A program made the translations under genes and the position numbers. Below the pieces are notes generated by a model, which did not search any database, was not told the DNA's origin, and was given only the letters and a program-made list of their open reading frames with translations. Shown piece by piece: positions 12,174 to 54,669 of a stretch of DNA of 54,669 nt. Each line of letters begins with the position of its first letter. The first letter of the stretch is position 1. The stretch comes from an uncultured virus (IMG/VR IMGVR_UViG_3300042450_001219) (taxonomy: Duplodnaviria > Heunggongvirae > Uroviricota > Caudoviricetes): the IMG/VR virus record IMGVR_UViG_3300042450_001219. One strand, 5' to 3'.

Positions 12174-12398
12174 CTACTCGGCTAGCTCATTTACTTCTGC
12201 AAGTTCTGAGTTTAGAACATCCAGTTGATTATTACATTCATCAATAGCATTAGTTAAATTTGTAACAGCTTCTTCTAATGGTTCGCTTTTATTGTTTTCA
12301 ACAACAAGATCTATTCCAAGGCTATATTTTTTATATTCTATAGCCTTTAGTCTTGCTTCAATAATTTGAATCTTGTCTTCTTTTTTTAATGTGGTCAT
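12174..12398 (-). CDS. small coiled-coil protein (74 aa)
   Basis: ORF track; GAGGAGG RBS. Confidence 0.75.
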   Translation of the reverse strand: MTTLKKEDKIQIIEARLKAIEYKKYSLGIDLVVENNKSEPLEEAVTNLTNAIDECNNQLDVLNSELAEVNELAE

Positions 12399-12414
12399 TT
12401 TTTCCTCCTCGTTT

Positions 12415-12442
12415 ATTATACCATTTAGGTTATATTAGTCAA
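12415..12442 (-). promoter_or_regulatory. sigma70-type promoter
   Basis: TTGACT-N16-TATAAT with extended -10 (TGGTATAAT). Confidence 0.7.
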
Positions 12443-12523
12443 TAGTATCATATTACTATTTAATACATCTTACCGCCGCGACAGGAAGAACGGTGTGAGT
12501 AACGGTGGGAATAACGTTCATCA

Positions 12524-15500
12524 TCAAGTTGTTGTAAAGGTTGTTGAGGCAGATGCTGAGGTTCCAGTTTGCGATGCCCCTGAGTAAACAGTTACCGTAA
12601 CAGTATATTCTGTTAAACGGGTTGCTCCAGTAACTTGTCTACTTCTAACGGTGGAACCACCAGTGGCTCCATTAAGAGCTGTGGAAGGAGAGGTTGCAAT
12701 AGAATATGAAGCCTGACCAGTAGAAGTCCAGGTTATAACTGCTCCAGTTCTAATTATGTTACTAGCTGTAATACTAGAAATTGTTGGGGCTGATGGGAAG
12801 AACGGTGGGAAGAACGGTGGGAAGAACGGTGGGAAGAATGGTGGGAAGAACGGGAAGAACGGCGGGAAGAACGGTGGGAAGAATGGTGGGAAGAACGGTG
12901 GGAAGAATGGGCCGACTGCAACTCTTGTTCCAGATACTCCAGGGCTAGACCAAGCTCCGTTGCCAACACTATTTTTTGCACGAACGTAGTAGTTGTTTGT
13001 GCCTACTGGGGCTCCAGTCCATACTGTAGTTATTATTGCTCCAACGGTGTGATCTGGGGTGTCGCTTGCTGATGGTACTCCGCCATACCAAATATCATAT
13101 CCAGTTGCGCCACTTACCTCAGTCCAAGATATCTCTACTCCGTCTGATCTAGTTGTAGAACAAGTTACTCCTGTAACCTGCGTTGGAAGTGATGGGAAGA
13201 ACGGTGGGAAGAACGGTGGGAAGAACGGTGGGAAGAATGGTGGGAAGAACGGACCAGCTGCTGCATTGACAGAAACTGCAGCAGAACGTGAGGCAGTTGA
13301 TGATCCACCTGAGTTAGTTGCCACTACGTCACAATACAAAGCGGACCCATATAGGGTTCTGTAGTTTGCTGGAGGCCTGTATGTTTGTCCTGTGCTTGTA
13401 AATGGAGATACAATACTTGCTGGTGCAGCTGGGTAAACGCTTCCTTGATCAAAGTATCTCCACTGATATGTAAAAGAAGTTGGAGAGTTAGTCCATGTTC
13501 CATCAGTAGTTGTGTATGTTGTAACTCCCTGTGTTCCAGTGCTAGGTGTTACAACTGGAGCTGTAAGTATTGTTGGAGCAACGACTGGCTTTATTGCTGT
13601 AATTAAAGTAAAGTTATCATCTACTCCATCTCTGCTAGTATTTCTAGTCATTCCTGCTACTGCAAAGTTGTCTGATGTTTGCAATGTAGATTCAGCCCAT
13701 GTTTGCGTAACAACATTATTATTATAAACAGCATTAGTGCTGTAAGAATCTACCCCGTTACTAATAAAATTAACATCAACTATGTTTGAGTCATAATAAA
13801 ATTTTGCTTGATATTCTGATATTTTTGTAGCATCTTGCCAATCAGCGCCTTTCCATCTTATATAAAAATTTGTAGAGTCTGAATAATGATATAGGAAAGT
13901 TTGCCTCTGGTCTCTCATTATAGGTGTTAAAAATACTCCAGTTATTGGTGGAGTTGATCCTGTTGACGTACTAGTTCCTATTCCAATAAAACCATTTGTT
14001 GATATATAAACATTTGTATTATTAGTAAAATTGCTTGGGAGGGTAACTCTTCTTTTAGCTAATGCTAACTGATTATTTGCATAGTAAGTATAGCTTAAAG
14101 AAGAAGTTGAGGATGTTGAAGTTGGCTTTGCTATAGAAGACAAGGAGGTTGGTGAGCCTGCAGTCCCAGCTCTAGTAGCTCCCGTCTGATTTAATCCAGA
14201 GTATGCCGTTACGCTATTTATAGATACAGTTGGATTAGAGGCTCCACCTACTGTAATGGTAAGTGGCATTGAATTTGTGTTTGATATGTATGTGCCATTT
14301 CCTCCTGATGCTCCAGACAAGTTCCAGCTTACAGCCCAGCTCTGCGCTCCAGACGTTGTGCTTACGTTAACATTTATTAATCTTGATTTTCCATATGCTT
14401 TAGTAAATGTGCTTATTGAAGAGCTTGAAGCAGAAGGAGATATGCTTAAAATCGCATCAGATGTACCTCCAGTAGGAACAAAATTTCCTGAAGAATTATA
14501 TTGATTTAATGTTGTTACTGCTTGAGTAATTGGTGCAGATATCGTTCCCCCCGTATTAGATCCAGCACCATAACTCAAAAGATCATAGGACTCAGTATCA
14601 GAAGGAAAAGATGCAGCCATTTCAACAAGAACGGTGTTTGATGTGGAAGAAACTCTAGTTTGTGTAGGCGCAGAAGGCGTAGTTACAGAGCTTACATTTG
14701 TCAATGAATATGTAAATGTACTTGGAGCTGAGGCAACTACATTAGTAGTCACTACTGAGACTTCAACACCAGTTGCCATACCCAGATCATAATCTGTTCC
14801 AGAGTTCTGTCTTGTTTCTGTAACATATAAATATTTACCATTGTCTGCTTCTACTGGAGTGTAAGATGCTCCATTTGCAAGAAAAGTTCCGCCGACTGTT
14901 GTGTTTGTTGAATTTCTATGCCATTGTACAAACGTGCTACGTGGTTTGTATGCTTCTCCAGCTTCCCATGTTGATGAATATGTTATTGGTGTTCCAACTG
15001 ACGGGCTATTTGTACTTAAGCTTGCTGTTAAATTTATAGGACTTTCTCTAATAACTTTTACTCTTGTTGAAAAAGACACACCATTGTATTGAGAGTTGGA
15101 TGAATTGTTTGCTGTAACTTCAAATGCTAAATATTGCTCATCCGCATTTGCTGAGTTGGTTGATGTCCATATTGCATATGGTAATTGATCTTGTCCACTA
15201 CCTGTAGAGTTTGGTGCTACAACAGACCAAGTTGTTCCGCTTCTTAAGGTTGTTAATAAATCTGTACCATTCTGATCGTAAAGTTTCCATCTGTATGTAT
15301 ATGATGATACATTCCATCCATTTAAATCCCAGTCAGCATTATTTCCAAAATAGGAGTCGCCTATTCTAATTACTGGATAAGTGGAATTAGGCATTCTTCC
15401 TGCATATGCATCTGATGCAAGGTATCCAATATATGGAACTCTTGTAGCAAAAATTCCTGACAGGGGCCAAACCTTAAGCCACTGAGTGGTATTTTTAATC

Positions 15501-15616
15501 CATACGCCAGCTGCCGCCTTCCATCCACCAGATCCAGTAGTACTCTTAACAAAAAGATTAGTTATTTTTTTCCAACCACCAGAGCCCGTAGTGCTTTTAA
15601 TAAAAATGTCTGACAT
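12524..15616 (-). CDS. tail fibre / adhesin with Ig- and FN3-like domains and PPFF-repeat linkers (1030 aa)
   Basis: Ser/Thr-rich; N-terminal KSTTGSGGWK duplication; Ig-like GTWTNSPTSFTYQW...CDVVATNSGG; FN3-like ISWTEVSGATGYDIW...YYVRAKNSVGNG; last gene of the tail block. Confidence 0.8.
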   Translation of the reverse strand: MSDIFIKSTTGSGGWKKITNLFVKSTTGSGGWKAAAGVWIKNTTQWLKVWPLSGIFATRVPYIGYLASDAYAGRMPNSTYPVIRIGDSYFGNNADWDLNGWNVSSYTYRWKLYDQNGTDLLTTLRSGTTWSVVAPNSTGSGQDQLPYAIWTSTNSANADEQYLAFEVTANNSSNSQYNGVSFSTRVKVIRESPINLTASLSTNSPSVGTPITYSSTWEAGEAYKPRSTFVQWHRNSTNTTVGGTFLANGASYTPVEADNGKYLYVTETRQNSGTDYDLGMATGVEVSVVTTNVVASAPSTFTYSLTNVSSVTTPSAPTQTRVSSTSNTVLVEMAASFPSDTESYDLLSYGAGSNTGGTISAPITQAVTTLNQYNSSGNFVPTGGTSDAILSISPSASSSSISTFTKAYGKSRLINVNVSTTSGAQSWAVSWNLSGASGGNGTYISNTNSMPLTITVGGASNPTVSINSVTAYSGLNQTGATRAGTAGSPTSLSSIAKPTSTSSTSSLSYTYYANNQLALAKRRVTLPSNFTNNTNVYISTNGFIGIGTSTSTGSTPPITGVFLTPIMRDQRQTFLYHYSDSTNFYIRWKGADWQDATKISEYQAKFYYDSNIVDVNFISNGVDSYSTNAVYNNNVVTQTWAESTLQTSDNFAVAGMTRNTSRDGVDDNFTLITAIKPVVAPTILTAPVVTPSTGTQGVTTYTTTDGTWTNSPTSFTYQWRYFDQGSVYPAAPASIVSPFTSTGQTYRPPANYRTLYGSALYCDVVATNSGGSSTASRSAAVSVNAAAGPFFPPFFPPFFPPFFPPFFPSLPTQVTGVTCSTTRSDGVEISWTEVSGATGYDIWYGGVPSASDTPDHTVGAIITTVWTGAPVGTNNYYVRAKNSVGNGAWSSPGVSGTRVAVGPFFPPFFPPFFPPFFPPFFPFFPPFFPPFFPPFFPPFFPSAPTISSITASNIIRTGAVITWTSTGQASYSIATSPSTALNGATGGSTVRSRQVTGATRLTEYTVTVTVYSGASQTGTSASASTTFTTT
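12794..12910 (-). repeat. coding tandem repeat [PFF(PPFF)4]x2 + P
   Basis: 12-bp unit CC(A/G)CC(A/G)TTCTTC with one internal 9-bp unit; 117 bp, 39 codons. Confidence 0.97.
13193..13252 (-). repeat. coding tandem repeat PFF(PPFF)4 + P
   Basis: Same 12-bp unit; 60 bp, 20 codons. Confidence 0.97.
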
Positions 15617-23825: not shown

Positions 23826-24418
23826 ACCTGCTCCATTGATATAGATACACTCCAGAAGGTCTGCAGGCCTCTTTTAAGGACAGTAAAGTCACATGAGGTA
23901 AACATTACCGTATAAGTATAATCATCGGCCAAGGTGCCAGCATCAGCAGTTATTAGGGATGGATTAAATACCGTTGGATTTAGTTTTATCCTAAAAGATC
24001 CTCTTCCTGCATCCGACTCATAAAAATTCTTTATGTCTTCTGCACCCCATCCACCATCTACTGTTTCATTTCTAAATGATGGCAACATTTCCCAAGATAC
24101 ACTTATGTTTAGCTTATCGGCAATAAAATATTTTCTTAGTGTTCCATTTGACATTCTTTGGCTAGATTCAATTCTATTTGTAGTTATAGCAAGGGGATCT
24201 CTATTATGCTCTGTAACTCTTCTAAATTTTAACTCCGCTCTATCCTCGTATCGTAGCGGCCAAGTTTTTGTTAGAGCATTATAGGCAGGATAAACATTTC
24301 CTGGCGGAGTAATTGTTTCACCCTTGTAGTTAAAAGTATTGTTTGCAGTATTAATTGCAAATGGGTCAATTGCTTCGATATATAACACAGATCCTTTTGC
24401 TAAGTTTTGAAAACTCAT
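23822..24418 (-). CDS. distal tail protein (Dit-like)
   Basis: Directly after the tape measure; RMSNGTLRKYFIADK...SVSW...WSVSISMEQV. Confidence 0.6.
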   Translation of the reverse strand: MSFQNLAKGSVLYIEAIDPFAINTANNTFNYKGETITPPGNVYPAYNALTKTWPLRYEDRAELKFRRVTEHNRDPLAITTNRIESSQRMSNGTLRKYFIADKLNISVSWEMLPSFRNETVDGGWGAEDIKNFYESDAGRGSFRIKLNPTVFNPSLITADAGTLADDYTYTVMFTSCDFTVLKRGLQTFWSVSISMEQV

Positions 24419-27400
24419 TACCCACCAACCCTTCTATTTACTCCAGCTGCCATTTCCTTTAATCTCATCTCTCTGTGTATTTGAGTTGCAACATCTTGTG
24501 CTGTTACATTAGTTCCATTTAATTCTACGTTAATATTATATACTGAACCTGATACAGCCGCCGATGCATTTGGATTAAATGGGTTCATATTAGCTGGGAT
24601 AACAGCTTCATCTTTATGAAGCATTGCCAGCATATTTGCAGGAACCATATTAATACCATTCTCAAACATTGGAACGCCTAGATTTTTTAATGAAGAATTT
24701 GAGAAGTTTTGGACAAGCCCGCCCATTGCATATCCACCGTTGCCTCTGCGTAGGCTTTCCAAGTACGCTTCGCCAGTCAGCATCTGTCTGTTACTTAAAG
24801 GCTGTCTTGCTTCAAAAGCTCTTTCTAAAGCAAGAATTCTTTCTAGCTCTGGTAAAGCCATTGGCTCTATATATCCGTTTGGACCATATGGGAAGGTTGC
24901 TGATGTGCGGTATGGACTTCCATACCATTCTACAACTTCTGGTCTAAGGCTATTTCTCAGCTCATCAGCGGAGCTCCAGTAAAGAAGTCTATCATCTTGA
25001 AAACCAATTATGCTGTTCCTATCATTAAATCTGTTACTATCACTGCCGAAGACGCCAATACCGCTGCTTGGTTGGGATGTTGGTTGTGATGGCTGGCGTG
25101 ATGGAGTATGGCCGCTTAGCCAAGATCCGATGCCGCTTCTTGCTTCTCCAGTTGATGGCTTTGGCTTCTTAGACTTTCCAATCTTCATAAGCATATCTAA
25201 ATATTGTTTTAAATTAGGAATTGAAGTTACTGCGCCATAGTAAGGATCATCTGCCATAAAACCACCGATACGAAGAGCTGATGGTCTACCCATGTCAGTT
25301 AAAGTATCAGAGTGTTTTATTCTAGTAATTGAAGTTGCTTTATTCCATAGAGCATCTGAAAGATGTTGGCCTCTATATCCTACATGTGTTCCACGATAAT
25401 GAACATATCCAGTAACTGGATCATAGTTTACCCAAGACAGTTGTTTTTTAGTAATAGGATCTAGAATTTCTGCTTGGTGCATTCCACCTGCACTAAAAGT
25501 TTTTGAAGTTTCTTTTCCTTCTTTTAAGCCTGCAAGGAATTTGTCTATATACGGTGCATCAGTAGGTAAAATATCTCCTTTTTCAAATCTAAAAAGATAA
25601 TCTTTTCCTTCTATTTTAATAAGCTCTTCTATAGTTTTTGGCAAATTCTTATTTTCTTCAATAAGATTGGCAGCGGTGGTATTTTTTAAATCTGGTAGTG
25701 CAGTAAACTTATTTCTCTTTGCTGCTCTAAGTGCATCAGATAGCGCAAGCTCATATCTTGCTTTTGCAAATTCTGGGCTATTAAGGTCACCTTCTTTTTT
25801 AAGAGCAACAAAATTACTTCTAAGTTTAGCATTTGGAAGAAGTGAGACTCTAGCTTCTGATGGTAAGCTTATAGCTGCTTTATCTATTATTTTATATGCT
25901 GCAGAACGTGCACGAAGTGCACTAACTCCTTTTATGGCACCTACTCCTGGAACAAAATTTAATCCTGCGCTAACCCAGTCTCCTGTAGTTGCGCTTCCTT
26001 TTGCAATTTCTGCAAAAGGATTAAACATACCTTGCATTAAAGCAGAAACATGTTGCTCATAAGATTTTGGATTTAAATCAGCAGCACCATTTTTTCCAAA
26101 TCCTGGAGTTTTGCCTTGAAAGTATACTCCAAAAAGATCTGCAGCTAATGCTCCAAGTGGGGCAAAAATTCCAAACGGTCCACTAGTAAGTATTTTTGCA
26201 CTAGTATCTGAGTAATTCTTTATAGGGCCATCTATTTTAGGGTCGTAGTATGAAAGATTTTTATTCTTTCTTGCTTTTTGTTCTTGGTTTAAAGGGAGAT
26301 TTCTTCCGTGTCTATGTCCTACTGGACCGCCTTTATGGTATCCAACTAGACCTCCATTTGCAAAATTGTTTTCCTTGGCCCAATACTTTAGCGCTACCCA
26401 TTTAGGGTCCATTGGATCCATGCCTGGGGTGATTTCATACTCTTTCATTTTATCTACCCAGCTTTGATATCTTGCACGAATAGATGCAGGCATTGCCTTA
26501 GATGCGCCTTCTGCTAAAAATCCTTCTGGATATGCTGGTGATCTCCAACTAGGATTTTCATCTAAAACTCTTGCCATGTGAGTAAAGTTACTAAAGTAAC
26601 CAGTTCCGTGTGCGTAAGGATTTCCAATTAATCTTGCAATGTCTAGCTTACCTTGACCAACCAAGCTATTATAAAGTCCAGCAGTTTTATCTGTTGCCAC
26701 TCCTTCTTGAACTGCTCTATAGTTTCCAATTAAATTTGGATTTTTACTAGAAAAATTTGTTAATATATTTTCTATAGCAGCTTGGCCTTGACCTAATTTA
26801 ATTTCTTGTGCAGAATCATAAGCTTTTCTAAGATATGCTAGTGCACCATCATCAAAATTATCTTTTGCTGAATTTAGCCAAGCATCGAAAGACCAATTTT
26901 TAGTTGTAAAGTCTAAATGATGAGCATACTCATGGACTGCAGTTCCCCCACTCATTCCACTTGGTGGCATTGTTATTGTTGTTTTATTTGGACTGTATTC
27001 ACCAGCAGAAGTTGATGTCATTTTAAAGTCTCTTGCAAGGTTGTAAGGAATTGCATCGTCAGCTGCTACCTTAGACAACAAATTATTTATACCAGTTTTG
27101 GTATTTATTTTTACACCATCGTTAGGAAGAGATTTTTTAAACCTTAAAATACCATTTTCAATTGATAGCTTTGCAGAATTTTGAGATATAGCAGCAGGCT
27201 TAGATAATAATGATGTTGAGTTAGTAGCTAGCTTAGTTAATCCGCCAATGGCTGGTAGCAGTGCAAGTAAGTCAGCTGAAACACCTAGAGACTTATTTCC
27301 AAAAATTTCTGGGCTAGTATTATTCTTCAAATTAAATGCTGATGTATAACCTGAAAGCATTTGTGCTGTTTGCAGTAGAGCTCTATCTTTTTCTTGCTGC

Positions 27401-30400
27401 GTTAATCCAAGCTTAACATTGGTAGCTTTGCCCTGAGTTTGGCGACCCATCATTCCGCTACCTATCCCCTCTATAAATGAGGTGATAGCATTTACTGGAT
27501 TAAACTTACTAAACCAGTTACCGTTTTTATTACCTACGAAACCGCCAGTTGCAAATGTCATAAAACCAGGTCCGTAAACGCCGTTTCCAATGCCTCCCAT
27601 AGAAGCTCCAGATCCTGCGTAACGCATTGGATCCTTGTCAAGACCCATTCCTGGCCCACTATACTTAATAGGCTGCTCGGCTATCTGATGCCAGTAATCT
27701 GAGCGATTAGCTATCTTTCCACTAAACGGAAGTCCTGGTATCTCTGTTCCGCCCCAAATATCTTTACCCTTGGCAGGACCGTATCTTAGCGCTCCCCATC
27801 TTTGAGTATAAGGACTTCCTGAAGGACTTCCATCACTCCAGTAATCTGGCATGTCTTCATCATATGGATTCCATCTAAATTTTGACCCTGGTAAATTTCT
27901 TCCATGTCTATGGCCAACTGGCCCTCCCTTATGTAGCTTTTGTGCATTTAATGCATCAAGTGCCTCTACGCCATATTTTGCAACAGAAGATGCTCTAACT
28001 ACATATTCTCCATTTGAAAGCATTGCTGGAATTGAATCTGATGTTCCAGTTCCTTCACCTCTGACTGGCCCACCATCAGCTTTTGTAGTAATTTTTTGTA
28101 GCTGGATGTTACCATCCTTAAGTACAACAAATTGTTTTATTGTTCCATCGGCTTCTCTAAAGTAAAAGTTAGTTCCTGGCTTATAGCCTTTCTTTTGGGC
28201 AAACTTTTTTACCTGTTCTCTACTGCTATTTGGATCATACTTATCTCCCCAATTAATAGAACTCTTACCCAATTGTCCAACAGTCGTTCCAGCATTTATT
28301 GGGTCAGAATAAGTTCCAGTGCCTTTTCCTTTTAGAGCAGCAACGATTTCTTCAGTCATTGTTTTTATCGAGTAGCCTTTACCTCCAGTAATCTGAGTAG
28401 CCATACTAGATACCAATGCAACGTCTCTATCAAGTATCTTTAAAATATCTTTATTTAAAGTGGTAATTGTTGTTGCGGTTACACCCCTGGTTGTAGCGTC
28501 AGGTAAACCAGGAGATTCAACATAAACCTTCTTTACTGTTCCATCTTTATTAAAGTACTGGGCAAAAGATTCTCTTATAGCTTTTGCGGTTTCGCTTGAT
28601 CCAGTTCCAGCTACACCAACTTTTTTAAGCAAATCGTCTAGCTTGCCGACAAGCTGGGCCTCCGCCTTTCTTTTCGCTTCGCTTTCTGGCATCATGCTAT
28701 TTGTTATTCTTAAAGCGGTTATCTCATCGTAAGTTGCTTTAAATCCTTTAACTACATCCATAACTGCAGCAGCATTTGTTGCATTATCTTGTCTGTCCTG
28801 GAAAGCAATTGCTTTTTTATCAGCTGCAGCTTGTTTTGCATCTATTTTCTTTTGCTCAATAGCTTTTAGTCTAGCTGCTTCATCTTGTATTGCTTTTTCA
28901 GCTAAGTCCGCTTGTCTATTAGATGTAAGCTGATCAATGCTTATTCTTGCTCTGGCTGCACCAGAAACATCTCCACGAGCAACAGCGTCCGCATATTCTA
29001 TTTGAAGTTTTTGCAATTCTAATGCATAGTTAGATGCGTCTTGAGTTGCTCTTAAAGAATCTAGCTTTTTATTTTTTTCATCTTCAATAAGGCTAATTTT
29101 TTTAGCAATTAATTTTATTTCTTCCTGAATGTTTCTTTGAGAAACTGCTGCTGCTTTTTGTGAAGCTGCTGAAGTAGCTAAAATTGATTCTTGCAGTCTC
29201 TTTAATACCTTGCCAGTTGACCCATATGTATTATTTTCATCACCAGCTTTAGTTAATTCAGAAATACCTGATCCAATTGCTGCAGTAAATCCAGCTAGCT
29301 TTATAGCTAAATTAGCATCGATAGCCTTTAGATCAATATTAATTCCAGAAGTAAACAGTTTAGTTTTTGCTATAATTGATTTTAATGTATCAAACTTATT
29401 TGTAATTTCTGCTAGCTTTGGGCTCATCTCTACCAAAGTATCATACGTATCTTTGCCAATTGGAATATTAAATTCAGGTATATTCTTTTCTGTGCTGGCC
29501 AATATTGTTTGATATGCTTCATGCTCATCAATAAGATCTCCTTGAGCATTTTTTGTTCCAATGAGCGCTTGAGTGCCTGCGTTAACTATGCCAATCATGC
29601 TTTCAAAACCAGAGATAACAGCTTTCTTTTGTGCGTTAGCATCTGCAAAAGTATCTGTTATAGCGTTATATGGAGACATTGGGTTCCACAAGCTTACATC
29701 TTTAGTATTAAATATCTGCCATACTGACTTATTGTTATTTAATGTGTTTACTAAATTGCTAACAGCATATTCTGCTGCAGTTGATTTATCTTGAATTGCG
29801 CCAAAGCCTTGATCTGCCAACAACTTGTAAGCCTGTGAAGCCTTTTCGCTATTAGCAATTGCTCCATATATCATGGAGTTTGCTTGCTCTATACTTAAGC
29901 CTCCTGCAACATATTGTGCTTTTTGATTATTTATTAATCTTTGAAGTTCACCTGTGCTTGAAGTTCTATTAATAGATTCAATTAACTCTTTAAGGACCTT
30001 GCCATCTTCTTTTGCCTTTTTCATTTCGTCTATGGACTGAGGTATGCCAGGCATTCCTATTGAGTTGCTTTTCGATCCTTGTGCTGCTGCGTTTGCTAAT
30101 TTCTGTTTTTCAATATAGTCTGTTAAGTACTGATTAAGATTGAAATATTTTATTCCAGCTTGTTCAGCACCTTTTGCGGTAATAGATAGAGCCATTGCAG
30201 CATCTTGTTGAGCATTGCTATACTTCTTCCAAATATCAAGTCCTACCAAAACAACTGATAAAGTTGCGCCAAGTAATTTAAACTTTTTAACAAAATCTGC
30301 TGCGGCTGCGCCTGTTTTAGAAATTGCATCTTTAAAGTTCTTAAAAGCTTTAACTGATGCTACTATAGAAGCTGTAGTTGATTTTACTGAACTTGCCATT

Positions 30401-47443: not shown

Positions 47444-47913
47444 CAGTCTAGCTTTTTGTCAATTCCCAGATTTGATAGGAATCTTTCTGGGTCAAATCTC
47501 CAGTTATCCTTGGCAAATGAGGTCATTATTTCCATGCATGCATCCTCATATGATTCGATTGAAATTAAAGGCTTTAGCTTTAATAGGGTTTCTGTAATAT
47601 CAATATAATTTGTTCTTAAAAATGTAGGATCCCCAGCTTGATTTCTCTTGAATACCTTTTCGTTAATTCTTCCATTTGGCTCATATAGCCTAACCGTTAA
47701 ATATTGCTTTGCAAATCCCCAGTCCTTATACATATTATATGCTTCTGCTGCTTCAATGGCATTAGGAAAGAATATAATTGATCTTGCTGGTTCTTCCCCG
47801 TCTCTTGCAATCGTAAGCATGTACGCATCACTTTTTTTGCTGGCTACCGTTTCAAGATAATCTTTAACTATATCATGATGTTCTTGCTTTAGCTGACCAC
47901 TCATTATGTCCAT
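47440..47913 (-). CDS. hypothetical protein (157 aa)
   Basis: ORF track; DNWRFDPERF C-terminal motif; true start may be the third-residue-downstream Met (MSGQ). Confidence 0.7.
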   Translation of the reverse strand: MDIMSGQLKQEHHDIVKDYLETVASKKSDAYMLTIARDGEEPARSIIFFPNAIEAAEAYNMYKDWGFAKQYLTVRLYEPNGRINEKVFKRNQAGDPTFLRTNYIDITETLLKLKPLISIESYEDACMEIMTSFAKDNWRFDPERFLSNLGIDKKLDC

Positions 47914-48491
47914 CCCATATTAAAGTGTTCTCTATATTCCAGATAATCAATTGCGTATGGGTCTACCCACCAGTCTTCATGCCATTGTCTTACAACTAAT
48001 TTGTAGCCAAGTGAGGACAGGATTTCTCTTTGAGCTTCTCTCATGCCCTTATTGTTATATTCAATTTGTGCATCATGTTCAAAAGTTATTATAGAATATC
48101 TGTACTTGCTCAGAGGCACTGCTAATAGTCCATGCAATGTTAAATAAGGATTTCCAACAGCATTTCCCTGCTGGGTGTATCCAGCATCAATATCTACTTG
48201 TAAATAATCAATTTGTTTTGGGAAGTTGTTTTCTTCAAAGTAGGACAGATAATTAAAATGTGTAGCATCTCCAAGGATACATGGGTTCTTTCTGTTTGCA
48301 ACAAATTCAGCATGTCTTTGCTTGTCTATCTCAAACGATACGCCGTTCCAATTATAATCTGTTTCTAAATGATATGTGTTGCTTCCTTGCTTAGAATCAA
48401 AAGCACCAAGCTCTACATAAAAACCATTTTCTTTATTTTTGAGCAATTGGGTGACAAATCTTTCTTGACCGCTAGTTCCTTTATATTCCAT
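47904..48491 (-). CDS. FkbM / Methyltransf_21-like SAM-dependent methyltransferase
   Basis: SGQERFV, GFYVELGAFD...SNTY.LE...WNGVSFE, IDYLQVDID, ITFEH, LGYKLV. Confidence 0.8.
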   Translation of the reverse strand: MEYKGTSGQERFVTQLLKNKENGFYVELGAFDSKQGSNTYHLETDYNWNGVSFEIDKQRHAEFVANRKNPCILGDATHFNYLSYFEENNFPKQIDYLQVDIDAGYTQQGNAVGNPYLTLHGLLAVPLSKYRYSIITFEHDAQIEYNNKGMREAQREILSSLGYKLVVRQWHEDWWVDPYAIDYLEYREHFNMGWT

Positions 48492-49071
48492 TTATTTCTC
48501 CAAAAACATCTTTATTTAAAGACACAACTTCATTTAGTTTATGCTTTACAAACATTGTAGACATATATCTAGTTATATTATCTTGAACTGGAAGCGTTCC
48601 GTGAAGTATTTCTCCTCCATGTAAAAGCAATGACCCTGCAGTTGGTTTATGAATTATTTTAAGATCTGGATAATTTAGTTCTCCACCCTTATAGTCATCG
48701 TTATAGTAAATAACTACACCATAAAAAATTTTTTCATCGTTAATTCTATGGCCCTCATGATCGTCAGTATGCTCTCCTAGGGCATCGTTTATCAAGTATC
48801 TTTGTAAATTTATTCCAGTCACTTGTACGTAACCAGTAAACAATCTACAGACTCTCTCATAAATCTTAATAAACATTGGGTCTTCATTTATAAAACTGCT
48901 ATTTAAAACTTTATCTTTCCAGAAATCGTAAGTAATGTTTTCTTCATGCCAGTCTGAATTGACCCTTGCTTTTATAAATTGCATTACCTGATCAAGCTCG
49001 TCTTCTGTTATAAAATTTTGTATTTCATAAACTTGATCAGATAACTTTACAATTTTATAGTCTAGCATCAA
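48481..49071 (-). CDS. 2OG-Fe(II) oxygenase, prolyl-hydroxylase-like
   Basis: HTD, VIYYNDDYKGGEL, LHG, RY. Confidence 0.9.
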   Translation of the reverse strand: MMLDYKIVKLSDQVYEIQNFITEDELDQVMQFIKARVNSDWHEENITYDFWKDKVLNSSFINEDPMFIKIYERVCRLFTGYVQVTGINLQRYLINDALGEHTDDHEGHRINDEKIFYGVVIYYNDDYKGGELNYPDLKIIHKPTAGSLLLHGGEILHGTLPVQDNITRYMSTMFVKHKLNEVVSLNKDVFGEINGI

Positions 49072-49076
49072 CTACA

Positions 49077-49835
49077 TTACTCTTGGTTTTGTTCATGGTA
49101 TGCTTTAATGTATTCTTCTGATGGTCCACCTGGGCCACCTACAACATAACCATCAACAAATATAAATCCAGGAGTAATAAACTTTTCTCCTTCTTTCATA
49201 ATATGAACTTGGTGCTTGTATGGATCTGTAGATGGGAAAATTAATGCGCTTCCAGCTTTTGGCTTTGCAGTAAATGTAACCATATCTTTAGTCCTTGGGT
49301 CTAGCGCATCATCTGGTGGTCTAAGATGACCATTCATTTCTAACCTGAGATCTTCTGGTCTAATAACAAACGATATTTCTCCGCCTTCATAGTCATCATT
49401 CCAGTAAATAATAATTGACCACTCTAGGCTATTATCTCCAGCTTGTCTATCAAAGTGAGCTCCCATTGCACAGCCTGGGATATACTTTTGTATACCAACA
49501 AACGGTGATACGTTTGGAACTCCCTTAAGGCCTCGATCAACAATAAAGGATTCTGATATATTCTTAATAGCATTTCTAATTGTTGATATGATAAAGTCTA
49601 CATCTTTTCTTATATCTTCATCTAAATTTTCTACTTCAGAAAGATTAAAGTCCTTTTTCTTTCCAAAGATGTTACCGTCTCTGCTGCTTGAATTCCAGTT
49701 TTTCCAGCTTGGAATAACCTTGTGAACTCTTTCATCAGAATCTAGCTTATTTATCAAATCAATAATTGCTTGTGGATTCTCAATTACATCTGAGTACATG
49801 TAAACATTTTCATGTAATTTTTCTTCTAGCTTCAT
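49077..49835 (-). CDS. 2OG-Fe(II) oxygenase, prolyl-hydroxylase-like
   Basis: HFD, IYWNDDYEGGEI, KPKAGSALIFPS, HQV, GEKF. Confidence 0.9.
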   Translation of the reverse strand: MKLEEKLHENVYMYSDVIENPQAIIDLINKLDSDERVHKVIPSWKNWNSSSRDGNIFGKKKDFNLSEVENLDEDIRKDVDFIISTIRNAIKNISESFIVDRGLKGVPNVSPFVGIQKYIPGCAMGAHFDRQAGDNSLEWSIIIYWNDDYEGGEISFVIRPEDLRLEMNGHLRPPDDALDPRTKDMVTFTAKPKAGSALIFPSTDPYKHQVHIMKEGEKFITPGFIFVDGYVVGGPGGPSEEYIKAYHEQNQE

Positions 49836-50578
49836 TAGTCGTTCTCCTCTATTTTGTATTTATTTCCGTCTAGATCTATTCTGTATCCTTCTTTTAATGC
49901 ATCTTGCCATTCCGACTTTATTACTTCTTGCTCTTCTCTAATTTTTTTCATCTCTGCATCCCAAGCATCTATTGTTTCTTGAGGATATGACTCTGGTGAC
50001 CGATTGTCCCAAAATGATCCGAGAGTGTATCTTATTCCAGAAGTTATCATTGTAACCTCATGAGTATTATCAAAGCCACCTGCAAAAGATGCAAGTGTGC
50101 CAGTCTCTGGAACTAGTGTATGGTTTTGTTTATTAAATATTAGATTGCCACCTTCAAAATCATCATTTAGATACAAGAAAGCTGCGTATCTACTTCTTTC
50201 AAACGGGCCTGTTTTTCCTTCTAAATCTGTATTGTCAGAATGCTCTTTAGCATAAGCTCCTGGCTCCCACTTTTGAGCATGAAATCCAATTTTATGAATA
50301 TCAGATGAAGAATTTCCATGCACCTCAGCTACAGCATCAATAATTCTATTTTGAAGAACTGAAAAGAAATCTGATGGCAAGCCGAACTGCTCTAGCTCTT
50401 CATCTCCGTCTTGGGGCAAAACTGATGAGTATGATTCATAGAAAGTGATAGGTGTCCAAGATAGCTTTTCATTTGCAACCTGCGCCTCTAAAACATCTAT
50501 AACCTTTTTAGATTCTTCTTTTGTTAAAAAGTTTTTAAATACTAAAATGTCTGGCGTTAATCTTTCTGAAGTACTCAT
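49835..50578 (-). CDS. 2OG-Fe(II) oxygenase, prolyl-hydroxylase-like
   Basis: HSD, LYLNDDFEGGNL, HEV, GIRY. Confidence 0.9.
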   Translation of the reverse strand: MSTSERLTPDILVFKNFLTKEESKKVIDVLEAQVANEKLSWTPITFYESYSSVLPQDGDEELEQFGLPSDFFSVLQNRIIDAVAEVHGNSSSDIHKIGFHAQKWEPGAYAKEHSDNTDLEGKTGPFERSRYAAFLYLNDDFEGGNLIFNKQNHTLVPETGTLASFAGGFDNTHEVTMITSGIRYTLGSFWDNRSPESYPQETIDAWDAEMKKIREEQEVIKSEWQDALKEGYRIDLDGNKYKIEEND

Positions 50579-51306
50579 TTATTTATATCTCCATCTAGTA
50601 GTATTCTGTGATATTTTTTATTTGGGTCTGGCTGATTTTCTCCAGTATGTTTTAGTATTTCCCAGAAAAATGGGCAAGTGTACCTGATAGCGCCTTTTAT
50701 TTCTGTTACCCCATGAATATAATTCATATCTCCTGGGAAGAAGTATGCTGCTCCTTTTTTAGGCTTAAACTGTACACCTTGAAGTGGAAAATATAATTCT
50801 CCACCTTCGTATTCATCATTTAAATAAAATAAACTTGAAAGATCATAATAAGGAAAATCATTTGGCATTCCAATATCTGGCAGCTCGTGAAGCTCTTTGT
50901 CGGCATGAGGCTTTTGAAATTGGCCAGGAAGCCAGCGAACAATTGTTGTGCCTGTTGGAGTTACTTTAACTTTATAAAAATCTTCAACAATAGGCTTTAG
51001 CCTTTCAAACAAACCTTGAAGAACTGGCCTAATTGCTGGGTCATTTTTGTCTAAAGAAGGGCTTGTGCAAACTCTATCTTTCCAGTAGTTAGCGTCGTAT
51101 ACAGTTGTACCATTTTCATTTACATGGCTTTCTGTTACATCCCAAATAGTAATCTTTCTGGCAGCTGATTCGAGAAACTCTATCTCTTCCTCGGTCATAA
51201 AGTTTTCTATCTCAACTATCATGTCTTTGCTTGACCCAAAAAACCCAGAAGGAGTTAAGGAAGGGGTCTTGTATACGACTGAAGCGTCTTGATTTGTCTG
51301 ATTCAT
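50575..51306 (-). CDS. 2OG-Fe(II) oxygenase, prolyl-hydroxylase-like
   Basis: HAD, FYLNDEYEGGELYF, HGV, IRY. Confidence 0.9.
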   Translation of the reverse strand: MNQTNQDASVVYKTPSLTPSGFFGSSKDMIVEIENFMTEEEIEFLESAARKITIWDVTESHVNENGTTVYDANYWKDRVCTSPSLDKNDPAIRPVLQGLFERLKPIVEDFYKVKVTPTGTTIVRWLPGQFQKPHADKELHELPDIGMPNDFPYYDLSSLFYLNDEYEGGELYFPLQGVQFKPKKGAAYFFPGDMNYIHGVTEIKGAIRYTCPFFWEILKHTGENQPDPNKKYHRILLDGDINK

Positions 51307-51312
51307 ATTATT

Positions 51313-51321
51313 ATTATATCA
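51313..51321 (-). promoter_or_regulatory. extended -10 promoter, probably leaderless transcript
   Basis: TGATATAAT followed after 6 nt by the ATG at 51306. Confidence 0.55.
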
Positions 51322-52041
51322 TTTCTTATTGCCTGAAGTAAGGTCTGTAATCTTCAACTTTAAAGACTTAACCTCATGATGGCCGCTTCCCATAGGACTG
51401 CCATCGTAATCCACTGCATCTCTATAAAAATTTGTATGCTCTCCTGTTTGAGTAATTTTTTCCCAGACTTTTAGTCTTTCTTCTCTGCGTGTATAATCAG
51501 ACTCTTTAAAGAATTTATCTTTTATTTCAAGCTCTATATTTTGATACTCCCCTAAAGATATTGGAATAAATGTTGCTACAGGCATTCCTGCTGGAATTTT
51601 TATAACTGTATTTGGCCTTGTTATTTTCCACGCAATGGGTATGCCTTCTTTCAAAACAGATGTTGAAATAATTGTTGTAAATGGAGTAGCCCCATCCACA
51701 AAAAAATTAGGGGGGACTATTTGAAGCATAGACATATTTGGTTCTGTTTCAAAGTAGTATCCAGAATAAAAACTAATTGTGGCATTTGCTCTTTGCCCAG
51801 TGGCGACCATTCCTGGATCTGATATTATTGTTACATGATCTGGGGTTGTATCTGAAATGCCGTCCCAACTAAACTCAATATCATCTAGAAAAGAAATTGA
51901 CCAACCAATAGTATTTGCTAAAGAAACAGGAAAACATTTATATGCATGGGCATTTAAAGTTTCATCCATCCAATCTCTTTTAAGTTTAGTTTGTTCAATC
52001 TTAGATCTAGTTGATTTATTTTTATAGGCTGTTATTTTCAT
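51319..52041 (-). CDS. DUF6065-like protein
   Basis: RDWMDET..HAYKCFPVSLANTIGW, PPNFFVDG, WKITRPN, GMPVATFIP. Confidence 0.7.
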   Translation of the reverse strand: MKITAYKNKSTRSKIEQTKLKRDWMDETLNAHAYKCFPVSLANTIGWSISFLDDIEFSWDGISDTTPDHVTIISDPGMVATGQRANATISFYSGYYFETEPNMSMLQIVPPNFFVDGATPFTTIISTSVLKEGIPIAWKITRPNTVIKIPAGMPVATFIPISLGEYQNIELEIKDKFFKESDYTRREERLKVWEKITQTGEHTNFYRDAVDYDGSPMGSGHHEVKSLKLKITDLTSGNKK

Positions 52042-52732
52042 TTATCTCATTGTCCCATTTTGGATCATACATCTCTTGAGTATGAAACTTTTTGCTATAA
52101 TCAAGCATGGTTACTATTGAATATTTTGTTCCTTTTGTTACGGCTTTTGCTTGATGTGGATACATAAAGTTAGATGGGAAAATATACAGGTCCCCAGCTT
52201 TTGGCTTAATATCTAAGCCTTGCAGTCTAAAAAATAATCCGCCATCATCATAATCATCGTTTACATATCCCACTAAAGAAACTACACAGTTGTAAGAATA
52301 TCCGTGATCTTGATGTTCCATAAAATGCTGGCTCTCTCCATACTTAATAAAGTTAAAAGCTTCCCAATATTTAAGCTCCATAATATTATGAGCCTTGCAA
52401 TAATCTACAACTACTGGATATTGAGCATCATAAACATCTTGCCATAAAGATTTTAGTTTTTCAGCGTCTTCGCTTTTATCAAGGGCAATGTCGCTTTTTT
52501 TAAATTTAAAATCTACGCAATCTCTATAGTCTGGCATTAGTTGCTGATAGCCAACATAGGCTGGTTGATAATTATATCTTTTTTCTTTACCGCCAACTGG
52601 ACCCACTGCTCCTTCAAGCCTATTTATAATGTCAAATTCTTTTTTTAATACGTCTCTATATACAAATATTCCAGGAGCTAGTTCTTCTTTGCTACTCCAT
52701 GTTGGAGCTGTACTTTTTGTTTCTGTTGTCAT
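52022..52732 (-). CDS. 2OG-Fe(II) oxygenase, prolyl-hydroxylase-like
   Basis: HQD, YVNDDYDDGGLFF, KPKAGDLYIFPSNFMYPH, GTKYS. Confidence 0.9.
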   Translation of the reverse strand: MTTETKSTAPTWSSKEELAPGIFVYRDVLKKEFDIINRLEGAVGPVGGKEKRYNYQPAYVGYQQLMPDYRDCVDFKFKKSDIALDKSEDAEKLKSLWQDVYDAQYPVVVDYCKAHNIMELKYWEAFNFIKYGESQHFMEHQDHGYSYNCVVSLVGYVNDDYDDGGLFFRLQGLDIKPKAGDLYIFPSNFMYPHQAKAVTKGTKYSIVTMLDYSKKFHTQEMYDPKWDNEINENNSL

Positions 52733-53502
52733 TTATACTCTCTCTTTTTCCAAATTTTTGATTTGTATACTCCACCGTCAGGCTGACGATAAAACTTTGC
52801 ATTGTCCATTAATTTTTTTTGCATTTCTTTTACCTCAAGGTACTCGACTTCATGATTCCAGTCTTCTCTTTTAAATGGTAGAATTTGCAAAAATGGTGTC
52901 CCTTTTGGAATTGTTCCTTCCCAATCTTTTGCAATAAAAAATGGGAAAGTTCCAAGTAAGTGTACTTCGTCGTTATCAACAACTCCGCTTGTATTTAAAA
53001 ATGGCAAATCAAATCTGTTCATTGGTGTCATAAATAACGCACTGTATCCTTTTGGAACTTGAATTCCCCATTCTGGATACCAGGCAAAATGGTCTTCGTA
53101 ATATCCAACTGGAGATGGAAATTGTTGCATAGGAGGTCTTTCTGTTACAAAGCCTACATGCTTTTTATCTTTTATTTCTACAGATATTGTTCCCTTTTTA
53201 TTTTTTGAAAATATTAAATCACACGGGGTACTTAATACATATCCAGTCATAAAAGCATCTAATATTGCTGGACAAGCTTTCCATGTTGGAATTTTGCCAT
53301 AGTCGTCCTTTGTGCCTTCTCTTGGAACAGGGCAAACTTCTTTAGGAGCTTTATAGTATTCTCCGTTAGGCATTTTTGCAAATCTGTCCGCCTCTTTATA
53401 CCATTCAGGAATGCTGCTTTGTGTTGGTTTTGGCAAAGAGGGGCTAAACTTATCTAGCCACGGCCTAAAAGATTGAAATAATATTTTAATATTTTTCTCC
53501 AA
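52729..53502 (-). CDS. DUF6065-related protein (possible dUTPase-like fold)
   Basis: IPEWYK, TWKACPAILDAFMTGY, PKGYSALF..PMNRFDLPF..SGVVDND, IPKGTPFLQILPFKREDW. Start tentatively the TTG at 53502 (GAGG upstream); track gives 53526. Confidence 0.6.
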   Translation of the reverse strand: MEKNIKILFQSFRPWLDKFSPSLPKPTQSSIPEWYKEADRFAKMPNGEYYKAPKEVCPVPREGTKDDYGKIPTWKACPAILDAFMTGYVLSTPCDLIFSKNKKGTISVEIKDKKHVGFVTERPPMQQFPSPVGYYEDHFAWYPEWGIQVPKGYSALFMTPMNRFDLPFLNTSGVVDNDEVHLLGTFPFFIAKDWEGTIPKGTPFLQILPFKREDWNHEVEYLEVKEMQKKLMDNAKFYRQPDGGVYKSKIWKKREYK

Positions 53503-54190
53503 CCTCTTCTTTATGATAAAGATCATTATAATCCATCATGATAACTACGGAATATTTTGTTCCAGACGATATATTTAAAGAAGCATGCTCATAAACAAAG
53601 TTAGATGGGAACAATATTATGTCTCCCGCTTTTGGCTTTAAAGTAAGATTATGTCTTGGGAATTCAATTTCCCCGCCATCGTAATCATCATTTAAATATA
53701 CAACTGCTGACACTGTACATGTATAATATGGACCGTGGTCAGCATGTACTTTAAAAAATTCTCCTGGCAAATACTTTACAAAGTTAAATGCTTCCTTGTA
53801 ATTAATGTGAAAATTCCATACTGATTCATAATGTCTTAATGATTTATTTAATCCCGCATCGACAATGTCATAGCATTCTTTTAAAACATCGCTGTCAGAA
53901 ATATATTTACCCAGCTGATCTTTTTTAAATTTTAAATCATAGCAATTTCTAGCGTGAGTAGTTCTTTCTTTTCCATTAACTTTTGCGCCGTTCCATTGAA
54001 TTCCGTTTTTGCCTAAAGATATTTCTTCTTCAAGCATAGTGATTACTCTTTGACAGTCTTCTTGACTTATTGCATTTCTATAAAGGTTTATGCCGTAGTC
54101 TAGGTTCTCAACAAGTATATTATCGTCAATTTTTTTTGACTCAACTCTTGAACTTGTTTTTTCAATTCTTGGTAGGTCGTACCATTCCAT
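53486..54190 (-). CDS. 2OG-Fe(II) oxygenase, prolyl-hydroxylase-like
   Basis: HAD, VYLNDDYDGGEIEF, KPKAGDIILFPSNFVYEH, GTKYS. Confidence 0.9.
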   Translation of the reverse strand: MEWYDLPRIEKTSSRVESKKIDDNILVENLDYGINLYRNAISQEDCQRVITMLEEEISLGKNGIQWNGAKVNGKERTTHARNCYDLKFKKDQLGKYISDSDVLKECYDIVDAGLNKSLRHYESVWNFHINYKEAFNFVKYLPGEFFKVHADHGPYYTCTVSAVVYLNDDYDGGEIEFPRHNLTLKPKAGDIILFPSNFVYEHASLNISSGTKYSVVIMMDYNDLYHKEEVGEKY

Positions 54191-54252: not shown

Positions 54253-54669
54253 TTAGTACATTCCTCCGCCGAAGTAAGGTGGGAAGAACGGGAAGGACGG
54301 TCCGAATGATGGGAAGAACGGTCCGAATGATGGGAAAAACGGTCCGAATGCTGGGAAGAACGGTGGGAAGAACGGTCCGAATAGTGGGAAGAACGGGAAG
54401 GACGGGCCTTTAAAGAATGGGAAGTATGGTGGGAAGAATGGTGGGAAGAACGGTGGGAAGAATGGTGGGAAGAACGGCGGGAAGAATGGGAAGAACGGTG
54501 GGAAGAATGGTGGGAAGAACGGTGGGAAGAACGGTGGGAAGAATGGGAAGAACGGTGGGAAGAACGGTGGGAAGAATGGTGGGAAGAACGGCGGGAAGAA
54601 TGGGAAGAACGGTGGGAAGAATGGTGGGAAGAACGGTGGGAAGAACGGTGGGAAGAATGGGAAGAACGG
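54253..54669 (-). CDS. Pro/Phe-repeat protein, C-terminal 138 aa (start lies beyond window end)
   Basis: Open frame to the window edge: tandem PFF(PPFF)4 units then PPYFPFFKGPSFPFFPLFGPFFPPFFPAFGPFFPSFGPFFPSFGPSFPFFPPYFGGGMY-stop; variation in the pure array is at third codon positions of this frame. Confidence 0.85.
   Translation of the reverse strand, partial: PFFPFFPPFFPPFFPPFFPPFFPFFPPFFPPFFPPFFPPFFPFFPPFFPPFFPPFFPPFFPFFPPFFPPFFPPFFPPFFPPYFPFFKGPSFPFFPLFGPFFPPFFPAFGPFFPSFGPFFPSFGPSFPFFPPYFGGGMY
54427..54669 (-). repeat. coding tandem repeat with 12-bp, 57-bp and 114-bp periodicity
   Basis: PPFF units, with a single-Pro PFF unit every 57 bp; the rare CCG-CCG unit recurs at 54475 and 54589. 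Confidence 0.95.

What the first reader, a model, noticed from the sequence alone, without database searches (positions are those of the whole stretch)
12794..13252. A strict 19-residue register, PFF(PPFF)4, shared by three arrays in two distant genes
Seen: the tail-fibre array at 13193-13252 is exactly one PFF(PPFF)4 unit, the array at 12794-12910 is exactly two, and the terminal ORF (54427-54669) repeats the same unit with single-Pro breaks every 57 bp. Both tail-fibre arrays are bracketed by G- and -PS and sit between FN3/Ig-like domains. Free slippage of a 12-bp unit would not hold four PPFF per unit. Inference: 19 residues is a structural or recognition module, such as a rigid aromatic-zipper rod, a docking site linking the two proteins, or an enzyme-recognition unit. 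Established: Pro-Phe-Phe peptides self-assemble, and PPFF occurs in the cyclic peptides antamanide and cyclolinopeptide A.
Basis: partly seen in the sequence, partly recalled or inferred. Interest (0 to 1): 0.78.

Follow-up and report, generated by a model that had tools for sequence, protein, structure and literature searches.

The report
Phage Pro-Phe arrays, register not fixed
The 19-residue rhythm in these proline-phenylalanine repeats is a block that this phage lineage has been copying, not a fixed structural unit; the repeats themselves are a real, widespread feature of lake-phage tail proteins and a candidate, untested target of the hydroxylase-like genes next door.

Summary
The three arrays are as described, but the register is not strict. 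The same terminal gene, continued at the contig start, has runs of 0, 2, 4 and 5 PPFF. The window's last 102 bases are an extra 114-bp copy absent from a record with 2 mismatches in 9.1 kb of flank. Tail-protein orthologues at 96-98% identity carry 3+4, 4+4 or 7. Of 688 internal units in 169 distinct arrays, 58 hold four PPFF: 33 of 87 in this phage's own clade, 25 of 601 elsewhere. So 57 bp is a clade-specific higher-order repeat spread by block duplication. Selection acts on composition and reading frame. The arrays mark tail-region proteins of a 116.7-kb WhiB-encoding lake phage, and the terminal one heads a cassette of six prolyl-hydroxylase-like oxygenases and two dUTPase-fold genes. The scan found this PPFF-oxygenase pairing before on other DNA. 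Added here: a second dialect, (PYSFT)n, replaces PPFF on the same carrier, with a different dUTPase-fold clade and few oxygenases; unrelated genes of one genome use the same dialect (22 of 22 pairs). No chemistry is shown.

The parts
13193..13252 (-). Array 1 in the 1030-aa tail-region protein: PFF(PPFF)4 P; DNA identical over 60 bp to the second unit of array 2
12794..12910 (-). Array 2: [PFF(PPFF)4]2 P; absent, with the last domain, from orthologues at 96-98% identity
12524..15616 (-). 1030-aa tail-region protein carrying arrays 1 and 2; last large gene of the tail block; no family hit
54253..54669 (-). 3' part of the terminal gene (leader + FN3 repeats + Pro/Phe array + degenerate PSFG/PFFP tail ending GGGMY); its 5' part is genome C1:1-1670; 626 aa in record L139
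54412..54567 (-). Part of the terminal array confirmed by the independent record L139
54568..54669 (-). Extra 114-bp block copy at the contig end, not in L139: assembly loop or recent duplication
53486..54190 (-). 2OG-Fe(II) oxygenase 1 (PF13640), HxD..H..K, starts 62 bp after the terminal gene
52729..53526 (-). dUTPase-fold protein (phrog_7084), homologous to DUF6065; its tree separates PPFF from PYSFT carriers
52022..52732 (-). 2OG-Fe(II) oxygenase 2, HxD..H..K; weak best PDB matches prolyl 3-/4-hydroxylases
51319..52041 (-). DUF6065 protein (PF19541)
48481..51306 (-). Four more PF13640 oxygenases (50575-51306, 49835-50578, 49077-49835, 48481-49071), all with HxD

Best explanation
The 19-residue register is a lineage-specific higher-order repeat inside a protein-coding minisatellite. 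Arrays are built from 12-bp PPFF and 9-bp PFF blocks; an ancestor of this clade fixed a 57-bp PFF(PPFF)4 block, and misaligned recombination or replication at whole-block offsets, where the match is longest, keeps copying it (shown: exact 114/135/171-bp duplications; inferred: the mechanism). 12-bp and 9-bp gains and losses also occur. Selection keeps an in-frame, Pro/aromatic-only tether between globular domains or before a variable tip of tail-associated virion proteins (shown: composition, frame and codon pattern; inferred: virion location and tether role). The likeliest reason for that selection is that the PPFF polymer is the substrate of the co-inherited cassette of prolyl-hydroxylase-like Fe/2OG oxygenases, which would hydroxylate Pro (and perhaps Phe) to tune a very hydrophobic stalk (inferred, about even odds; no chemistry shown). 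I put the register part at about 0.85 and the substrate part at about 0.5.
For: Register: broad counts; four-count share 38% in the near clade against 4% elsewhere; in L139 identity at offset 57 is 0.89 with a 56-bp perfect run, at offset 12 0.81 with 23 bp; L148 = L145 + an exact three-unit 171-bp block, L162 = L161 + 135 bp, window = L139 + 114 bp; orthologues 3+4 (102 bp), 4+4 (114 bp), 7 (93 bp) show single-block indels. Protein-level selection: all arrays in frame; TTC:TTT is 5023:570 in 210 DNA arrays against 101:459 in the phage's own genes and 1:23 in the rest of the same gene; runs of 5 or more T number 244 against 2112 expected at genome codon usage, while PYSFT arrays, which have no FF pair, use TTT 351:64; CCC is rare, as reported for Pro pairs in E. 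coli (PMC8129111, abstract). Cassette: of 56 pattern-found arrays with 2 kb downstream, 40 have an oxygenase there, against 2 of 37 upstream; 45 of 47 PPFF array genes with 4 kb downstream have 2-4 oxygenases, 1 of 20 PYSFT genes has one; whole records: 23 of 25 PPFF-type hold 5-11 PF13640 matches, 10 of 10 PYSFT-type hold 0-3; two array-less FN3 homologues have none in view. All six window oxygenases keep HxD.
Against: Four is modal in tail-protein-type arrays from divergent genes (16 of 44) and threes are nearly missing in the near clade (1 of 87), which history alone need not predict. Short-read assemblies break in these arrays, so some length differences between records may be assembly errors. 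The PPFF/PYSFT contrast is one change on the dUTPase-fold tree, so oxygenase association is one phylogenetic contrast and may be linkage. A PPFF lineage (L013/L022, record G006, 60% complete) has two dUTPase-fold genes beside the array but one oxygenase in 88 kb. PDB matches of the oxygenases to prolyl hydroxylases are weak (best E 0.003 and 0.05). Six or more different oxygenases is more than one simple polymer seems to need, and the genome has further oxygenases far from any array. Offset 57 is not better than offset 12 in every array (L151: 0.80 vs 0.81).
Confidence: 0.7

Rival explanations
1. One reading: 19 residues is a selected structural or docking unit (aromatic-zipper rod, or a site that pairs the two proteins in register).
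For: All three window arrays use four; four is modal in the near clade and in tail-type arrays, with few threes; the free tripeptide packs by an aromatic zipper (PMC8113556, passages).
Against: 58 of 688 units hold four, and only 2 of 169 distinct array strings are pure four-units; 96-98% identical orthologues have 3+4 and 7; record G013 pairs a 7-run tail protein with a 0,5,2,2,4,4,3 terminal array; modes agree in 3 of 16 genomes, Spearman 0.44, p 0.09.
Confidence: 0.07
2. Genome-specific peptide dialect: arrays and their end motifs are matching tags on unrelated virion proteins, read by a cassette-encoded partner (the dUTPase-fold protein, the oxygenases) or by each other; the motif matters, the count does not.
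For: 22 of 22 within-genome pairs in 20 records share the array type, against 584 of 794 between genomes; variant 6-mers are shared more within genomes (median 0.13 vs 0, p 7e-6, pairs not independent) while the longest exact DNA match is not longer (23.5 vs 26 bp, p 0.54); shared blocks differ at many synonymous sites (6 of 19, 14 of 25, 5 of 12 codons); dUTPase-fold tree splits by dialect in one change though carriers are 64-81% identical across dialects.
Against: Blocks were picked for matching residues; old copying plus general purifying selection gives the same picture; several pairs are paralogous genes; 8 of 22 within-genome pairs share no variant 6-mer and this genome's pair shares little (0.08); relatives of the dUTPase-fold gene occur in haloarchaeal viruses with no such array in the adjacent genes read, next to ribonucleotide reductase or thymidylate synthase.
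Confidence: 0.25
3. Passive hydrophobic spacer and recombination seam: the arrays are flexible linkers whose shared DNA lets phages swap tips and downstream cassettes; the oxygenases act on something else and ride along by linkage.
For: Tips behind the array vary freely (Cys-rich peptide, Hint, S74-like, none); array DNA is tens of times deeper than its flanks in lake metagenomes, so many phages share it; one contrast only; G006 exception.
Against: Within-genome arrays share no long exact DNA; an almost pure Pro/Phe chain with costly Pro-Pro pairs and shifted codons is a poor neutral linker; distant second genes match the dialect without linkage.
Confidence: 0.25
4. Precursor of cyclic PPFF peptides (antamanide- or orbitide-like RiPP).
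For: PPFF occurs in antamanide and cyclolinopeptide A (recalled, no call); modifying enzymes lie next door.
Against: Arrays are internal to 630- and 1030-aa FN3-type proteins, with no spacers between cores; no Peptidase_S9 in the complete genome, control rings in 13 of 14.
Confidence: 0.03

Closest known systems
Higher-order repeats of tandem DNA (alpha-satellite type; coding minisatellites) - concept recalled, listing only
   Same: Short variant monomers grouped into a longer block that is copied whole, lineage-specific in period, variable in copy number.
   Different: Here the array is protein-coding, 60-400 bp, in a phage, with only two monomer lengths (12 and 9 bp) and a selected peptide product.
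Chlorovirus PBCV-1 prolyl 4-hydroxylase (PDB 5c5t) and its Pro-Ala-Pro-Lys repeat substrates (PMC3634087, passage citing Eriksson 1999)
   Same: Virus encodes both Pro-rich repeat proteins and a 2OG-Fe(II) hydroxylase of this class; 5c5t is among the weak best matches (E 0.017).
   Different: Six tandem oxygenases plus two dUTPase-fold genes; repeat is hydrophobic PPFF; activity untested here.
Tandem dioxygenase array of Synechococcus phage Syn9 and the beta-hydroxylase/sulfotransferase operons with collagen-like or tail-collar proteins (Iyer et al. 2010, PMC2938197, passages)
   Same: Tandem, mutually divergent 2OG oxygenases in a phage; a co-encoded repeat or tail protein proposed as substrate. 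PYSFT carriers L211, L213, L252 have sulfotransferase-like neighbours (two at Pfam cut-off) and L211 an Asp/Asn beta-hydroxylase.
   Different: The paper proposes secondary-metabolite synthesis for the phage arrays and, in the passages seen, names no Pro/Phe repeat; no halogenase or JmjC gene was seen here.
Pro-Phe-Phe / Hyp-Phe-Phe tripeptide assemblies (PMC8113556, passages)
   Same: Same residues; aromatic zipper; hydroxylation changes packing.
   Different: Free synthetic tripeptides held by head-to-tail hydrogen bonds; no polymer and no 19-residue period.

Membership tests
Fixed-period structural repeat (19-residue module) | Unit length conserved among homologues | tested here: not met
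   58 of 688 units hold four PPFF; orthologues 3+4, 4+4, 7, 2-3-4-3
Fixed-period structural repeat (19-residue module) | Register shared by the two partner proteins across genomes | tested here: not met
   same modal run in 3 of 16 records
Fixed-period structural repeat (19-residue module) | Defined fold or oligomer of the unit | not testable with these tools
Higher-order repeat in a coding minisatellite | Tandem variant monomers | tested here: met
   12-bp and 9-bp blocks with third-base variants
Higher-order repeat in a coding minisatellite | Whole blocks more alike than adjacent monomers | tested here: met
   offset 57 vs 12: 0.89/0.81, 0.88/0.81, 0.80/0.78, 0.81/0.80 in four of five near-clade arrays; 0.80/0.81 in L151
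Higher-order repeat in a coding minisatellite | Copy number differs by whole blocks between close genomes | tested here: met
   114, 135, 171 bp exact blocks; short-read assemblies, so some may be errors
PBCV-1-type viral prolyl hydroxylase with repeat substrate | HxD...H iron triad and basic 2OG-binding residue | tested here: met
   HxD in 6 of 6; distal H..K/R matched by pattern in 4 of 6, seen by eye in the other two
PBCV-1-type viral prolyl hydroxylase with repeat substrate | Enzyme belongs to the P4H clade | tested here: inconclusive
   two of six searched; best PDB E 0.003 and 0.05, to prolyl 4-/3-hydroxylases
PBCV-1-type viral prolyl hydroxylase with repeat substrate | Hydroxylation of the repeat shown | not testable with these tools
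   needs assay or virion mass spectrometry
Antamanide/MSDIN or orbitide cyclic-peptide precursor | Short precursor with leader, delimited core and follower (recalled) | tested here: not met
   arrays lie inside 1030- and 626-aa proteins
Antamanide/MSDIN or orbitide cyclic-peptide precursor | Prolyl-oligopeptidase-type macrocyclase | tested here: not met
   no PF00326 match in the complete record; a host enzyme is not excluded
Trimeric dUTPase/dCTP deaminase (52729-53526) | dUTPase beta fold | tested here: met
   model pLDDT 90; ranks 1-23 dUTPase-fold, best Z 9.4, rmsd 3.7, 129 aligned; Foldseek best E 0.002
Trimeric dUTPase/dCTP deaminase (52729-53526) | Five catalytic motifs and activity | not tested
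   no motif mapping done; profile finds no dUTPase in PDB by sequence

The most novel reading that the evidence does not exclude
Lake actinophages use interchangeable peptide dialects: a Pro/aromatic polymer (PPFF or PYSFT) is grafted onto several unrelated virion proteins of one genome and is read by a co-travelling cassette (a dialect-specific dUTPase-fold protein plus hydroxylases for PPFF, at times a sulfotransferase or beta-hydroxylase for PYSFT), giving a phage-encoded, collagen-like post-translational tailoring system for tail appendages, in which a Hyp-Phe-Phe polymer would be a natural counterpart of a designed stiff peptide material.
Probability: 0.25. Interest if true: 0.82.

Novelty: new variant of a known kind. 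Interest (0 to 1): 0.42.

Why it matters
As posed, the finding is negative: it warns that a neat period in one assembled repeat can be a recent block copy or an assembly loop. The arrays matter more than their register. They give the unexplained tandem oxygenases of phages a concrete candidate substrate, and the PPFF/PYSFT switch on one carrier supplies a natural specificity control that makes the idea directly testable with synthetic peptides and expressed enzymes. I found no paper on them, but the scan's own notes already hold the PPFF-oxygenase pairing.

Tried and rejected
Single-sequence fold of 51319-52041 failed (pLDDT 31). ESM Atlas gave only DUF6065 and unnamed clusters. Profile searches of PDB with both dUTPase-fold alignments gave nothing under E 0.3. 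Complex prediction (dUTPase-fold trimer with the 38-mer) was not available, so binding is untested. Recent gene conversion between the two genes of this genome as the cause of the shared register: not supported; longest exact match of array 2 to the terminal array of L139 is 44 bp, simulated median 48 (95% of 400 reach it); 69 bp to L145 is reached by 13.5%. A nucleic-acid-level role of the repeat was considered for the TTC/CCG bias and not pursued: PYSFT arrays lack the TTC bias and arrays always read in frame. Cellular origin: 18 stretches in the species-genome collection; by eye 6 are the same phage-type array genes on metagenome-bin contigs and 12 are incidental frames. No cultured phage holds a relative of the terminal carrier. 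No RNA holder listed. Laying four runs gave contigs that break in the arrays and no allele counts. No tRNA in the window. Literature searches without a relevant hit: 'PPFFPPFF' 0, 'DUF6065' 0, phage tail-fibre Pro/Phe low-complexity 0, freshwater actinophage oxygenases 4 listed, one read by passages, none on this, higher-order repeats in phages none (listing only). Subscription papers are not searched; supplements of PMC2938197 were not opened and may list such neighbourhoods. The careful tree did not finish; both trees are quick ones.

Full report
Setting. The window is bases 62001-116669 of a 116,669-bp virus record with terminal repeats. It encodes a WhiB protein (E 4e-13) and a capsid protein 61-63% identical to those of Streptomyces phages such as BillNye, so the host is probably an actinobacterium (inferred); all 24 listed runs that hold 12300-14300 are lake or freshwater metagenomes. 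All long genes of the window lie on the - strand.

The observation. ORF 12524-15616 (1030 aa) carries G-PFF(PPFF)4-PS at 13193-13252 and G-[PFF(PPFF)4]2-PS at 12794-12910. The frame 54253-54669 carries four 57-bp units, then a degenerate tail. These are the only such runs in the genome. The contig, however, is broken inside the terminal array: its ends overlap by 92 bp and the gene's first 556 codons lie at the contig start. That part begins PFF PFF (PPFF)2 before the four-count units, and the last unit has five double-Pro blocks. Record L139 differs from this genome at 2 of 9,135 flanking bases, matches the contig start fully and the contig end up to window base 54567, and implies an overlap of 206 bp, not 92. 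The last 102 bases of the window are thus an extra copy of a 114-bp block: an assembly loop or a very recent duplication. L139 reads 0,2,4,4,4,5.

Homologues refute a strict register. Twelve orthologue loci of the tail protein gave 4 and 4+4 in 3 (100% identical), 3+4 in 3 (98%), 4+4 in 1 and 7 in 3 (96%), and 2,3,4,3 in 2 (44%); the 96-98% ones lack the second array and last domain. Over all loci then held (own-genome and cellular loci left out), 169 distinct arrays gave 688 internal units, 58 with four; 2 strings were pure four-units (both also found in this phage's own orthologues) and 60 had no break, at 4-30 blocks. The pattern search favours long runs, so this does not undercount fours. 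In the near clade, which I defined by its Cys-free tail, 33 of 87 units hold four, 21 one, 18 two, 10 none, 4 five and 1 three; elsewhere 25 of 601 hold four. In 16 hand-picked tail-protein-type loci four is modal, 16 of 44 runs, range 0-7. Across 16 records with two or more PPFF genes the modal run agrees in 3.

How the register is kept. Third-base codes of the Pro codons show growth by exact blocks: L148 is L145 plus three units (171 bp), L162 is L161 plus 135 bp, the window is L139 plus 114 bp, and array 1 equals the second unit of array 2 over 60 bp. In L139 the array matches itself at 0.89 with a 56-bp perfect run at offset 57, and at 0.81 with 23 bp at offset 12; four of five near-clade arrays favour 57, L151 does not. 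A block that gives the longest match is the one that misaligned recombination or replication copies (established for higher-order repeats; recalled). Single-block indels also occur (102, 114, 93 bp alleles). Recent copying between the two genes of this genome is not shown: their longest exact match, 44 bp, is below the simulated median of 48. The shared four is best read as a clade-wide ancestral block, possibly with a soft length preference.

What selection keeps. Arrays stay in frame and almost pure Pro/aromatic, with Tyr, His or Trp swaps. Phe is TTC 5023 times and TTT 570 times in 210 DNA arrays, against 101:459 in the phage's own genes and 1:23 in the rest of the tail gene; runs of five or more T are 244 against 2112 expected. 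PYSFT arrays, without adjacent Phe, use TTT 351:64. This fits selection against slippery U-runs in a translated FF polymer (inferred); rare CCC and raised CCG match what is reported for Pro pairs in E. coli (PMC8129111, abstract only).

The neighbourhood. The terminal gene follows a fibre-like gene (PHROG tail-fibre hits) and is followed after 62 bp by six PF13640 oxygenases and two DUF6065-related genes. All six keep HxD; the two searched have prolyl hydroxylases as weak best PDB matches. The model of 52729-53526 (pLDDT 90) has a dUTPase fold (best Z 9.4, rmsd 3.7, 129 aligned). With my own oxygenase profile, 40 of 56 pattern-found arrays have an oxygenase within 2 kb downstream and 2 of 37 upstream. 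The scan had noted this pairing in at least 9 other genomes; those notes are unchecked, and my counts are my own.

A second dialect. The same leader-FN3 carrier can end in (PYSFT/PFAFT)n instead. 45 of 47 PPFF genes with 4 kb downstream have 2-4 oxygenases; 1 of 20 PYSFT genes has one, though L228, L237 and L250 have two just beyond 4 kb. In whole records 23 of 25 PPFF-type hold 5-11 PF13640 matches (G006 and G027 hold 1) and 10 of 10 PYSFT-type hold 0-3, including two complete genomes with 1 and 3; most records are fragments. Some PYSFT carriers have sulfotransferase, beta-hydroxylase or glycosyltransferase neighbours, like operons for which Iyer et al. proposed repeat or tail proteins as substrates (PMC2938197, passages). 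The tree of the adjacent dUTPase-fold protein (48 rows from 105) splits the dialects in one change, support 99, while the carriers are 64-81% identical across dialects and need three changes, one forced. So array plus cassette is swapped as a unit, and the association is one contrast, not many. In 20 records with two or more array genes, 22 of 22 pairs share the dialect; rare peptide motifs are shared more within than between genomes, exact DNA is not, and shared blocks differ at many silent sites (blocks were chosen for matching residues). Against a dedicated partner: relatives of the dUTPase-fold gene occur in 49 haloarchaeal virus records, after the tail genes and beside nucleotide-metabolism genes, with no such array in the adjacent HRTV-8 genes that I read.

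Verdict. The arrays are real; the strict 19-residue module is not. It is a clade-specific higher-order repeat, half of whose terminal copies in this window may be an assembly artefact. The wider system, Pro/aromatic polymers on phage tail proteins with a matched enzyme cassette, is not in the papers I could search, resembles the PBCV-1 hydroxylase and its repeats (PMC3634087, passages) and the Syn9 array, and remains without any shown chemistry or binding. Interest 0.42.

Noticed in passing
L154:1839-2276, L155:1498-1935, L171:2950-3378 and others in L139-L218: 17 of 17 carriers with four or more Cys after the array are followed by a 128-150 aa gene of no Pfam family; 21 of 25 with fewer go straight to an oxygenase. 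Candidate tip chaperone; in PYSFT carriers a longer form ends in DUF6171.
   Followed up: partly
L169:6101-7480, L163:4030-5397, L314, L318, L330, L331: Many arrays of both dialects end in a Hint-like domain (weak Hint_2 hit); in G022 two unrelated carriers have homologous copies with 22 of 77 residues changed. Others end in an SDxR[LK] motif of S74-type chaperones (label recalled).
   Followed up: partly
L344:5857-6693 (HRTV-8 gene 36), L345, L346: Cultured haloarchaeal tailed viruses carry the dUTPase-fold family (26-29% identity) right after their tail genes, on the opposite strand: a culturable handle on this family.
   Followed up: partly
L013, L022 (record G006): A PPFF lineage with a different carrier, two divergent dUTPase-fold genes and only one oxygenase in 88 kb: the clearest exception to the pairing.
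   Followed up: no
L230:5116, L242:5059: A third motif, (FGA/FSA)n, grows out of PYSFT arrays in two carriers.
   Followed up: no
L153:7950-10241, L164:913-2694: FN3 stalks related to the terminal carrier end in a Gly-rich domain instead of an array and have no oxygenase in view.
   Followed up: partly
window 47904-48491: 195-aa gene closing the cassette; looks like a methyltransferase to me (recalled, no Pfam or PHROG hit).
   Followed up: no
window 24418-36192: Very long tape-measure-like gene, 3924 aa.
   Followed up: no
L257, L262, L265, L267, L268, L272: Phage-type array genes with oxygenases sit on contigs binned into unrelated bacterial genomes, probably mis-binned phage DNA.
   Followed up: no
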